Origin: a virus
Taxonomy: Duplodnaviria > Heunggongvirae > Uroviricota > Caudoviricetes
Virus record (IMG/VR): IMGVR_UViG_2534681939_000020
Location: 1 to 8,950 of that record
Length of the DNA stretch: 8,950 nt
Strand: one strand, 5' to 3'
Shown in pieces: positions 6,001 to 8,950 of the stretch. Position numbers: made by a program. Position 1 is the stretch's first letter. Every line of letters starts with the position of its first letter.

Positions 6001-8950
6001 TGATATAACGTTGTCTCGCCTCCTGATACGGATCACCCACAAAACCGAGGTCATCCGCCGCATACCCCAGTCGGACACGCTCTTTTTCTTCCCCTTTCAG
6101 TCTGGACAGGGCCAGCTCACGCTCTGTTTTTGTCAGGGCACTCTGCTGTTTATCATCCAGGGTGGCCTGCGGCAGCCGTAACGGTACATTCACCAGTCCC
6201 TGACGCTGCTGAAGCAGTTCATTCCCCAGCCCCAGCAGACGGTTGAATTCCGTATGCTGACCGTTTCATAACCAGCATGGACTGGTACACCTTATTCTGC
6301 TCTGCCGCCTGCTGACGAATTAACGCCACACGACGGTCTTCCAGCCCGGCAAGCACATCCTGAATGGACTGCGCTTTTTCCTGCATCTGTGCCAGACGGG
6401 ACTGCTCATCGGCAAGCTGCTCTGTTGCCTGAGAAAGCCCTTCCGTTACGGTCTTCACCGATGTCAGATGGTTTATCATGAATCCGTCACCGGTCGTCCA
6501 GCCCGGGTTCGCCAGAACATACTGATATCCTGCGATTTTTTCCTGCAGGGATTTCACCCGGCTGGCCTGTTCATCAATCAGCCGGTTCTGCTCTGTCAGC
6601 GCCGCCCGTGTTCGTCCTTCATTATCTGAGGCTTCAGGCAAAGACATTGACGGCGTTTTATGCGCGATTTCATCTATCGTCAGTGCATACTGGCGCGCAG
6701 ACTCCCTGGCCTGCTCCTGATTCTGGTACAGCGTGTACCATGCTGCAGCCCCCAGCATCACCAGTCCGGGTACGCCACCAACCAGCCCCAGCGCACCGCT
6801 CATCAGACGTGAGCCCACCGCCGTTGTACTGTTCAGCGCATTCTGGGCGGCGCTTCTGGCAGCAATATTTCTGTTCAGGCGTTCCTGTGTGGCCGCCAGA
6901 CGGGCCTCTGCAGCAATCTGCATCTCCGTCCCGCGGGCTGCCGCCACGGCCTGCTGAGCACGGTACACGGCTGCCCTTGCCCGCGCCGTGGCAATCTGCG
7001 TTCCCCTGAACTGTGCTTCCGCCAGTGCAACTTCATTACGTGCAGCCGTCACAAGTCCTGCCGTGGCAGACATCGCTCCGGAGGCCATATTGCCAAAGTA
7101 CCGGGCAACCCCGACGGCAACCAGCGCGCCCACGGCTGTTGCCACATTATCAATCTGTCCGGCAACACCGTTCAGCATGCCGGAGAGCGTTTTTGTCACC
7201 CCGCTGGCCTCATTCGCACCGCCCACCCAGGCCATAAAGGCGTTTTCCACCTTCGTGATACTACTGGAAACCGTTTCCGGCATGGCCGCATATTCATCAC
7301 GTAATATCCCCAGCTGGCTGATTAACGCGGGGACCACTTTATCCGCTGTCAGTTTTCCGTCATCCGCCATTGCCTTCAGATCTTTACGGGCCACGCCCAT
7401 ACCCGCAGCCAGTGCACGTACGATCCGGTCACCACTTTCATTGACCGAATTAAACTCCTCACCACGCAATACACCCTGCGCCAGCGCCTGACTGAACTGG
7501 GTGATCACCGAGCCCGCCTCTGCCGTACTGGTCACCGGAGATTTTCAGCCCTGTCGAAATGGCCTCCGTCACCTTCAGCACATCATCAGCACTGTAACCA
7601 TATTCACGCATTGAGGCGGCTGAGCGGGCAAACAGGGCCGCATTATCCGAAAATGCGGTGCCTGTCCGCTGGCTGATATCCATCAGCACTTTCTGTGATG
7701 ACGCAAATTCATCCGATGACTGCGACGCCTGTTTCAGACGGGCATTCACGGAGCTCCACTCATCCGCCAGCGAAATCAGGCGTCCGGTGGCAAAGGCACC
7801 GGCAAACGCACCGGTCATTCCGACAGCCGAAGCGCGGATTTCCGTCAACTGGCTGTGCAGCTCAGCCAGAGCCCGGCGCTGCTCCCTGGCTGCCGCAGCA
7901 GCCTGACGTCCGCCATTCTGCAGGGTCCGGTAATATTCACTGCCCATACGGGACGCCCGCTGGATCTCCGACTGGAATGACTGTGAATTTGCCGAAATTT
8001 TGATAATCAGTTCACGTAACGTCGCCATTCACCTTTCTCCGGGCAAAAAAAACCTGCCACAGCAGGTTTTCATCATTATTTATGACATTGCTGCAAGGCT
8101 CAGCGCGTCTTCCAGCGCCGCAAACGGATCCACCTCCGGCTTATCCTCATCCTCGCCCCAGCAGAGCATGGCGTCCTTCAGTGCAACATTCATCCCCTGT
8201 CGCCCCGAAAACCGCTTTCACGATCTGTGCATTACGGATATCCCCGCGCTCATCACCCAGCGGGGATACCCTGTCGAACTCCATCCACATCATCGCCTCG
8301 CTCGCACTCAGGCTGTGCCGCAGTTCGGATAAGGTGCGCCCCAGACGGAGCGCAAGTCGCATCAGAAAGCGAATTTCCGGGCGGGCTACTTTTTTCTGGC
8401 CGACTCTGCATCAGCGATCAGTTCCAGTGCCTGACGCAGCAACCGGGCATGTACCGGACCATAGACGGCCAGCACCTGCTCACGGTCGTCCGGAGTGAAC
8501 ACCCGTTGCAGGTCAGTATCACACAGGACATCGCAGAACAGCGTCACATCCGCTTCCAGGTTACGGCGGGTTTTCGCCACCACCGACAGGGTATCGTCAT
8601 CCTCTCCATCACCATTGAGCACTTCCTGCCACAGATACCAGGCCTCTGCCGAAGGCTCCCGCAGCACCACGCTGACATTTCTCCATTCCGGCACCTTCAC
8701 CGTTTTATGACGGAACCCCGACAGTCTGGCCAGCGCCAGTGTTTTCAGATCTTTTGCCATAAGCCTTATCCGCCCGCACCATTAACCGTTACCGTACACG
8801 CATCAGAGGTAATGCTCTGCGGCTGTTCTGCAGAATCCATTACCATGCAGGTATAAGCCCCCTTATCACCTGACTGCGCATTGGCTTTACTGAAAGTGTC
8901 AGTAGTCTGTCCCTCGACCGGCTGACCATCCTTCTTCCAGGCGTATTTAT

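What the first reader, a model, noticed from the sequence alone, without database searches (positions are those of the whole stretch)
8386..8410. dnaX-type A-AAA-AAG slippery site for G to G-T recoding
Lambda uses G-GGA-AAG (as I recall) to make gpGT. Here the site is A-AAA-AAG, three codons before the G stop, and the -1 frame is open only from 8410 onward, so the shift window is tightly constrained. This supports the G and T calls and gives a testable recoding site.
Basis: partly seen in the sequence, partly recalled or inferred. Interest (0 to 1): 0.45.

Follow-up and report, generated by a model that had tools for sequence, protein, structure and literature searches.

The report
Known phage tail G/GT frameshift site
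This is the well-known ribosomal slip site that lets lambda-like phages make a little tail-assembly fusion protein (GT) alongside a lot of G; this exact sequence was measured at 7% slippage in 2013, so it is real but ordinary, and this copy sits in a broken prophage.

Summary
On the minus strand, the tail assembly chaperone gene G (8760..8386, Pfam Phage_TAC_1) ends AGA_AAA_AAG_TAG. The heptamer A_AAA_AAG (8395..8389) is in the X_XXY_YYZ phase, and the -1 frame opens at 8410 and encodes a Phage_tail_T domain.

The interpretation (programmed -1 frameshift making G and G-T) is supported:
- Window 8341..8415(-) is base-for-base a cassette that Antonov et al. 2013 cloned into an E. coli reporter, which gave 7% ± 0.79 -1 frameshifting.
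- All 41 distinct homologous loci examined have one in-frame A_AAG at the same place, and 25 of them have the full A_AAA_AAG.
- The junction-to-T spacing is fixed.
- Phage HK544's homologue is annotated "programmed frameshift".

- The heptamer covers the last two sense codons and abuts the stop codon.
- Only the heptamer resembles dnaX. No conserved upstream Shine-Dalgarno or downstream structure was found.
- In this window T is truncated by a 1-nt insertion at 8201. The tape measure gene carries three more insertions and gene L is cut by an IS21 remnant, so this copy is a relic in a defective E. coli O157-type prophage, or the sequence has errors.

Novelty: already known. Interest is low.

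The parts
8386..8760 (-). Gene G: tail assembly chaperone, 124 aa plus TAG stop
   Evidence: ORF. Pfam PF06222 Phage_TAC_1, E 2.3e-61, matching 1-124/124. 100% identical to the 'tail assembly chaperone' of Stx-converting phages and E. coli O157 prophages.
8389..8395 (-). Slippery heptamer A_AAA_AAG, in phase with G (AG[A AAA AAG] TAG)
   Evidence: Sequence, pattern search. Lies inside the cassette measured at 7% -1 frameshifting. A_AAG at the homologous position in 41/41 loci, full A_AAA_AAG in 25/41.
8386..8388 (-). G stop codon TAG, immediately 3' of the heptamer. Its T and A, together with the last G of the heptamer, form the first -1 frame codon GTA (Val).
   Evidence: The stop abuts AAG in 29/41 homologous loci.
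8411..8413 (-). TGA stop in the -1 frame, which sets the upstream limit of the shift window (-1 frame open from 8410)
   Evidence: Translation of the -1 frame (...TDR*CRVGQKKVARPEIRF...). The overlap is 22 nt.
8147..8389 (-). T reading frame as it stands in this window: 80 codons from the junction (VARPEIRFLMRLALRLGRT...) to a premature stop. The last 17 residues are out of frame.
   Evidence: Pfam PF06223 Phage_tail_T matches only profile positions 1-40 of 73, against 1-70 of 73 in the intact relative.
8201..8201 (-). Single inserted G that frameshifts T
   Evidence: Alignments to L001 and L003. Absent from all 2780 matching places in 1226 complete E. coli genomes.
8080..8200 (-). Ancestral C-terminal part of T (…GMNVALKDAMLCWGEDEDKPEVDPFAALEDALSLAAMS*), now displaced into G's frame by the insertion
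   Evidence: One search compared with the intact T of L003 and L002.
8360..8362 (-). ATG from which public annotation starts a stand-alone 94-aa 'tail assembly protein T'. It is the Met of the conserved F-L-M motif.
   Evidence: Annotations. No Shine-Dalgarno pairing upstream (window -3.5 kcal/mol, most homologues -1.7 to +1.7).
8335..8354 (-). Local hairpin UGCGCUCC-GUCU-GGGGCGCA, 34 nt downstream of the heptamer. Probably a by-product of the conserved LALRLGR codons, not a stimulator.
   Evidence: Fold (z -1.48). No covarying pair and paired fraction equal to shuffles. RNAalifold consensus energy -0.04 kcal/mol.
8766..8950 (-). 3' end of the major tail subunit gene, upstream neighbour of G
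   Evidence: Collinear with L003 969..1685, annotated 'major tail subunit'.
4783..8028 (-). Tape measure gene H, downstream neighbour of T, split into four ORFs by 1-nt insertions at 7532, 6266 and 5193
   Evidence: ORFs. Pfam TMP_3, Phage_HK97_TLTM and Tape_meas_lam_C spread over the pieces. Indels.

Best explanation
This is the programmed -1 ribosomal frameshift site of the G/GT tail assembly chaperone pair of an HK97/lambda-like siphovirus prophage of E. coli. Most ribosomes translating G read AAA-AAG and terminate at TAG, giving the 124-aa chaperone G. In a few percent of passes the single E. coli tRNA-Lys, which pairs weakly with AAG, slips back one base on A_AAA_AAG. It then reads GTA and continues in the T frame, joining G to the T domain (…SARKK-VARPEIRFLM…). 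By analogy with lambda, G and the G part of GT coat the tape measure protein. The T part recruits the major tail protein. The fixed G:GT ratio is set by the slip frequency. The slip relies on the heptamer itself, possibly helped by the adjacent stop codon, and not on dnaX-like flanking stimulators. In this particular window the signal is intact but the downstream T frame is broken by a 1-nt insertion, and the tail module is otherwise damaged. So here it is a relic that would yield a truncated 204-aa fusion. What is shown: the anatomy, the family conservation, and the reporter frameshifting of the identical sequence. What is inferred: the tRNA mechanism and the chaperone roles, taken from dnaX and lambda work.
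For: Anatomy. Domains: Phage_TAC_1 E 2e-61, with Phage_tail_T in the -1 frame. Gene order: major tail gene, G, T, tape measure gene. Experiment on the identical 75 nt: 7% ± 0.79 -1 frameshift in an E. coli GST-MBP reporter (PMC3711429 Table S2; exact match to window 8341..8415(-)). Conservation in 41 distinct loci with G 47-68% identical, from more than 15 genera plus phages HK544, HK542 and 606R7: one in-frame A_AAG in the overlap in every locus; the slip codon is AAG in 41/41, while Lys codons elsewhere in G are AAA 174 to AAG 95; the junction to the F[LM]M motif is 7 residues in 38/41; the -1 frame opens only 7 nt before the G stop in L011, L012 and L028, which pins the shift to the heptamer. 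HK544's homologous CDS is a two-part join annotated 'programmed frameshift'. There is no ribosome-binding site before T's ATG. Reviews state that A_AAA_AAG is the most shift-prone heptamer in E. coli and that G-T frameshifting is widely conserved (PMC5009743).
Against: The native GT protein of this prophage family was not observed here, and the 2013 assay used a reporter cassette. In this window T is truncated (insertion at 8201), H carries three frameshifts and L is interrupted. A functional GT is therefore not expected from this copy unless those indels are sequencing errors. The bare heptamer count in the window is not above chance.
Confidence: 0.93

Rival explanations
1. T is made as an independent 94-aa protein by initiation at the ATG at 8362..8360, as RefSeq and GenBank annotate it. 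The heptamer at the end of G would then be incidental.
For: Close relatives are annotated with a separate 'phage tail assembly protein T' CDS and no slippage. The Met is conserved in all homologues.
Against: There is no Shine-Dalgarno pairing before the ATG in nearly all homologues (-1.7 to +1.7 kcal/mol; window -3.5). The -1 frame is open and of fixed length (7 codons) from the slip site to the Met in 38/41 loci, with a conserved Pro. The slip codon is AAG in 41/41 against 35% AAG elsewhere. The identical cassette does frameshift at 7%. HK544's curators annotate a frameshift join.
Confidence: 0.04
2. The frame change is made at the RNA level: RNA polymerase slips on the A run and deletes one A from some transcripts, which are then translated normally into G-T.
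For: The reporter assay in PMC3711429 does not separate transcriptional from translational slippage for this cassette. Some homologues have 8 A in a row (for example L008, L011, L046). One assembled ORF (P0020) is an in-frame fusion with one fewer Lys.
Against: The window has only six A. PMC3711429 cites A runs longer than 7 for transcriptional realignment. 15 of 41 homologues have just 3 or 4 A (GCA_AAG, GAA_AAG) at the same position, so the family-wide mechanism cannot depend on a long homopolymer. A_AAG is an established ribosomal -1 site in E. coli.
Confidence: 0.02
3. In this copy the site has no biological role. It is an inert remnant in a decaying prophage, and any frameshifting only yields a non-functional truncated peptide.
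For: T is truncated by the insertion at 8201. H has three 1-nt insertions, K has a 1-nt deletion, and L is cut by an IS21 fragment plus an antirepressor gene. The 8201 insertion is unique among 2780 related places.
Against: This is not really a rival on mechanism, because the signal itself is intact and identical to the tested cassette. The five indels could be sequencing or assembly errors. However, the L truncation is shared with a finished genome (strain 493/89), so the tail module is defective either way.
Confidence: 0.75

Closest known systems
Phage lambda G/GT programmed -1 frameshift (Levin, Hendrix & Casjens 1993; Xu, Hendrix & Duda 2004, 2013, 2014)
   Same: Two overlapping ORFs lie between the major tail gene and the tape measure gene. 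The second ORF is in the -1 frame with no start of its own. A slippery heptamer ending in A_AAG sits at the end of G. Efficiency is low (a few percent). The T domain belongs to the same Pfam family (PF06223) as lambda gpT.
   Different: The heptamer is A_AAA_AAG, not G_GGA_AAG. G belongs to Phage_TAC_1 (HK97 type), whereas from my own knowledge lambda gpG falls in a different Pfam family; that was not tested here. The heptamer directly abuts the G stop codon. Measured efficiency is 7%, against a 30:1 G:GT ratio quoted for lambda.
HK97-like coliphage G/GT: HK544 'programmed frameshift' CDS, HK542/HK97, and the Phage_TAC cluster of Antonov et al. 2013
   Same: Direct homologues, with G 47-63% identical and the same gene order. 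The window's 75-nt cassette is one of the two members of this cluster tested experimentally (7%). The other tested member is nearly identical to the HK542 sequence (G_GGA_AAG) and gave 6%.
   Different: HK544 uses G_GAA_AAG 15 nt before the stop, and HK542 uses G_GGA_AAG 3 nt before the stop. This window's copy has a broken T.
E. coli dnaX tau/gamma -1 frameshift
   Same: Identical heptamer A_AAA_AAG, same host tRNA-Lys, and a stop reached soon after the shift site in one of the frames.
   Different: dnaX has an upstream Shine-Dalgarno-like stimulator and a downstream stem-loop, and shifts at about 50%. Here neither stimulator is present or conserved, there is no Rfam match, and efficiency is 7%. 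In dnaX the shifted product is the shorter one; here it is the longer one.

Membership tests
Phage tail assembly chaperone G/GT -1 frameshift | Two ORFs located between the major tail protein gene and the tape measure gene | tested here: met
   The window is collinear with L003, where the order is major tail subunit, tail assembly chaperone, protein T, tape measure. Pfam tape measure domains lie downstream.
Phage tail assembly chaperone G/GT -1 frameshift | Second ORF overlaps the end of the first in the -1 frame and lacks its own ribosome-binding site | tested here: met
   The -1 frame is open from 8410 and the G stop is at 8388..8386. No Shine-Dalgarno pairing precedes the only ATG.
Phage tail assembly chaperone G/GT -1 frameshift | In-phase slippery sequence inside the overlap, conserved in position among homologues | tested here: met
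   A_AAA_AAG at 8395..8389. A_AAG is found in 41/41 homologous loci at the same position.
Phage tail assembly chaperone G/GT -1 frameshift | Frameshift product demonstrated | not testable with these tools
   Not testable here. The literature reports 7% ± 0.79 in an E. coli reporter for the identical 75-nt cassette (PMC3711429 Table S2). The native GT protein is not documented.
Phage tail assembly chaperone G/GT -1 frameshift | Intact T domain downstream of the shift | tested here: not met
   In this window Phage_tail_T matches only positions 1-40 of 73, because of a 1-nt insertion at 8201. It is met in close relatives (1-70 of 73). This affects the function of this copy, not the identity of the site.
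dnaX-type frameshift cassette | Heptamer A_AAA_AAG | tested here: met
dnaX-type frameshift cassette | Upstream Shine-Dalgarno-like stimulator about 10 nt 5' of the heptamer | tested here: not met
   Best anti-SD pairing in the 24 nt upstream is -3.0 kcal/mol in the window. Values among homologues vary (-2.4 to -7.2) and are not conserved.
dnaX-type frameshift cassette | Downstream stem-loop 5-9 nt after the heptamer | tested here: not met
   No structure close to the site. The only hairpin starts 34 nt downstream, with no covariation. No Rfam frameshift element matched, and all hits were far below gathering scores.

The most novel reading that the evidence does not exclude
Across this family the selected element may not be the classical tandem-slip heptamer. 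It may instead be the tetramer A_AAG placed against, or within a few codons of, the G stop. In 15 of 41 lineages the P-site codon (GAA or GCA) cannot re-pair canonically, and in 29 of 41 the stop abuts AAG. The G:GT ratio might then be set by single-tRNA-Lys slippage competing with release-factor action at a 'shifty stop', which would make the tail chaperone ratio sensitive to RF1/RF2 levels.
Probability: 0.25. Interest if true: 0.3.

Novelty: already known. Interest (0 to 1): 0.1.

Why it matters
The finding has practical value for annotation only. More than a thousand complete E. coli genomes and many Stx-phage records annotate T as a separate 94-aa ORF instead of a G-T fusion made by ribosomal slippage. 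The conserved A_AAG junction gives an exact join coordinate. Biologically it adds nothing new: G/GT frameshifting has been textbook since 1993/2004 and this exact sequence was assayed in 2013. For this window, the main information is that the prophage tail module is defective.

Tried and rejected
- **Downstream stimulatory structure.** The single-sequence fold of 8290..8420 has z = -0.54, and 8320..8388 has z = -1.48. RNAalifold on 17 homologues gave -0.04 kcal/mol and 3 pairs. The explicit test of the hairpin at 8354..8335 found 0 covarying pairs and 75% of cells paired, against 75.5% in shuffles. Rejected.
- **Upstream Shine-Dalgarno stimulator.** Not conserved. Rejected.
- **Rfam scan at E ≤ 10.** Only sub-threshold chance hits and no frameshift element.
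- **NCBIfam scan of the intact GT.** No family matched.
- **Heptamer count as a significance test.** Uninformative: 2 observed against 1.24 expected.
- **Searching for the source of the 8201 insertion.** None of 2780 related places share it. The EDL933 copy, whose match spans the same 811 nt as the query, has an intact T, and its extra base is intergenic. Whether the five indels are real or errors could not be settled.
- **Xu et al. 2004 (Mol Cell).** Not in the held library, so its table of slip sites could not be checked.

Full report
**Observation**

The genes in this part of the window run on the minus strand. Reading that strand and translating the three frames shows a 124-aa ORF at 8760..8386 that ends ...GCC_AGA_AAA_AAG_TAG. 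The heptamer A_AAA_AAG occupies 8395..8389 in the X_XXY_YYZ phase. The TAG stop is at 8388..8386. The -1 frame contains a TGA at 8413..8411 and is open from 8410. A -1 slip would read GTA next and give ...SARKK-VARPEIRFLMRLALRLGRT.... Every factual element of the finding is therefore correct. The one exception is that the heptamer is not three codons before the stop: it covers the last two sense codons and touches the stop. The heptamer count in the window (2 against 1.24 expected) is not significant on its own. The significance comes from phase, position and conservation.

**What the genes are**

The 124-aa protein matches Pfam Phage_TAC_1 end to end (E 2e-61). The -1 frame product matches Phage_tail_T, the family of lambda gpT. 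The window is 99.7% identical over its whole length to a prophage of E. coli O157:H7 strain 493/89. The G-T stretch (7990..8800) is 99.6-99.9% identical to long-tailed Stx-converting phages and to BP-4795. In those records the gene order is major tail subunit, tail assembly chaperone, protein T, tape measure. The G-T stretch occurs in 1246 of 5426 complete E. coli genomes.

**Direct experimental precedent**

Supplementary Table S2 of Antonov et al. [quoted passage not shown] It gave 7% ± 0.79 -1 frameshifting between GST and MBP in E. coli. This string matches window 8341..8415(-) with no mismatch. The second cassette of that cluster (G_GGA_AAG, nearly identical to the HK542 sequence) gave 6%.

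**Comparative test**

I collected 41 loci encoding G homologues from species-representative genomes (G 47-64% identical, from Enterobacter, Kosakonia, Morganella, Proteus, Providencia, Pectobacterium, Serratia, Klebsiella, Pantoea, Erwinia and others). I added phages HK544, HK542 and vB_EcoM-606R7. Three loci were frame-disrupted and were set aside. The results for the 41 distinct analysable loci are:

- Each locus has exactly one in-frame A_AAG inside the G/-1 overlap.
- The heptamers are A_AAA_AAG (25), G_GAA_AAG (7), A_GCA_AAG (4), G_GCA_AAG (3), A_GAA_AAG (1) and G_GGA_AAG (1).
- The slip codon is AAG in 41/41. Other Lys codons in the same genes are AAA 174 to AAG 95.
- In-frame A_AAG occurs at only 31 of 4992 other codons.
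- AAG abuts the G stop in 29/41 loci.
- The conserved F-[LM]-M-x-LALR-x-GRT motif of T starts 7 residues after the junction in 38/41 loci and 8 residues after it in 3/41.
- In L011, L012 and L028 the -1 frame opens only 7 nt before the G stop, so the shift can only happen on the heptamer.

GenBank's HK544 record, whose G is 63% identical, annotates the homologous CDS as a two-part join labelled 'programmed frameshift'.

**Stimulators**

- The single-sequence folds are unremarkable (z -0.54 and -1.48).
- RNAalifold over 17 homologues finds essentially nothing (-0.04 kcal/mol).
- The one local hairpin (8354..8335) starts 34 nt after the heptamer. It shows no compensatory change, and its paired fraction equals that of shuffles. 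Its pairing potential follows from the conserved LALRLGR codons.
- There is no conserved Shine-Dalgarno-like element upstream of the heptamer.
- No Rfam frameshift element matches.

So the site shares only its heptamer with dnaX. This fits the measured 7%, against about 50% for dnaX.

**Mechanism**

The Atkins et al. 2016 review (PMC5009743) supplies the background. E. coli has a single tRNA-Lys that pairs less well with AAG than with AAA. A_AAG alone supports -1 slippage. A_AAA_AAG is the most shift-prone heptamer in E. coli. In lambda, G and GT bind the tape measure protein while the T part recruits the major tail protein, and the G:GT ratio is critical. These steps are inferred for the present locus by homology. 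The frameshift itself is shown by the 2013 reporter result.

**Rivals**

- *Independent initiation of T at ATG 8362, as RefSeq annotates.* This is unlikely. There is no ribosome-binding site. The open, fixed-length -1 frame extends upstream to the junction.
- *Transcriptional slippage.* This is unlikely with six A, and it is not a possible family-wide mechanism where only 3-4 A are present.

**State of this copy**

Relative to its closest relatives, the window carries these changes:

- single-base insertions at 8201 (in T), 7532, 6266 and 5193 (in the tape measure gene);
- a single-base deletion near 1825 (in the C40 peptidase gene).

Gene L is truncated by an IS21 transposase fragment followed by a P22AR antirepressor gene, and strain 493/89 has the same layout. 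The 8201 insertion is absent from all 2780 related places in complete E. coli genomes. Because of it, the GT made here would be 204 aa, with 17 aberrant C-terminal residues and only the first 40 of 73 Phage_tail_T profile positions. Relatives make a 226-aa GT. The recoding signal is thus intact, but it sits in a defective tail module. The indels may alternatively be sequence errors, although the L truncation would remain.

**Verdict**

Interest is low. The only mildly open point is whether the family relies on A_AAG plus an adjacent stop rather than on a canonical tandem-slip heptamer.

Noticed in passing
window 8201, 7532, 6266, 5193 (insertions) and ~1825 (deletion): There are five single-base indels relative to the closest genome (E. 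coli O157:H7 493/89, 99.7% identical). They frameshift T, split the tape measure gene into four ORFs and break the C40 peptidase gene. Most are not in homopolymers. They could be real decay or sequencing/assembly errors.
   Followed up: partly
window ~4200..2374: Minor tail gene L is truncated after its N-terminal part by an IS21-family transposase fragment (3761..~4198, + strand), followed by a P22AR-type antirepressor gene (3252..2374, - strand). The same insertion is present in strain 493/89, so the tail module is defective independently of the point indels.
   Followed up: partly
window 8070..8043 (-): A hairpin AAAACCTGC-TGTG-GCAGGTTTT followed by a T run lies between the ancestral T stop (8082..8080) and the tape measure start (8028). 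The homologous position in phage HK544 is annotated as a rho-independent terminator. A terminator inside the tail operon just after G-T may lower tape measure expression.
   Followed up: partly
L001, L002, L003, L048 (close relatives): RefSeq (PGAP) and GenBank annotate T as a stand-alone 94-aa ORF starting at the internal ATG, with no ribosomal slippage. This is a systematic annotation gap affecting more than a thousand E. coli genomes.
   Followed up: yes
L004-L044, L045, L047 (homologous loci): 15 of 41 distinct homologous loci carry non-canonical heptamers (G_GAA_AAG, A_GAA_AAG, A_GCA_AAG, G_GCA_AAG) whose P-site codon cannot re-pair in the -1 frame. Only A_AAG is universal, and in 29 of 41 it abuts the stop codon.
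   Followed up: partly
protein P0020 (Logan assembly): This is a 191-aa ORF in which G is fused in frame to T, with one fewer Lys at the junction (...EVKK-VALPGMRFLMM...) and a degenerate C-terminus. It is most likely an indel in the A run of that assembly rather than a natural fusion.
   Followed up: no
window 920..926 (-): The only other AAAAAAG in the window lies in the non-coding gap between the tail assembly gene I (ends 1009) and gene J (starts ~768). It has no reading-frame context.
   Followed up: yes
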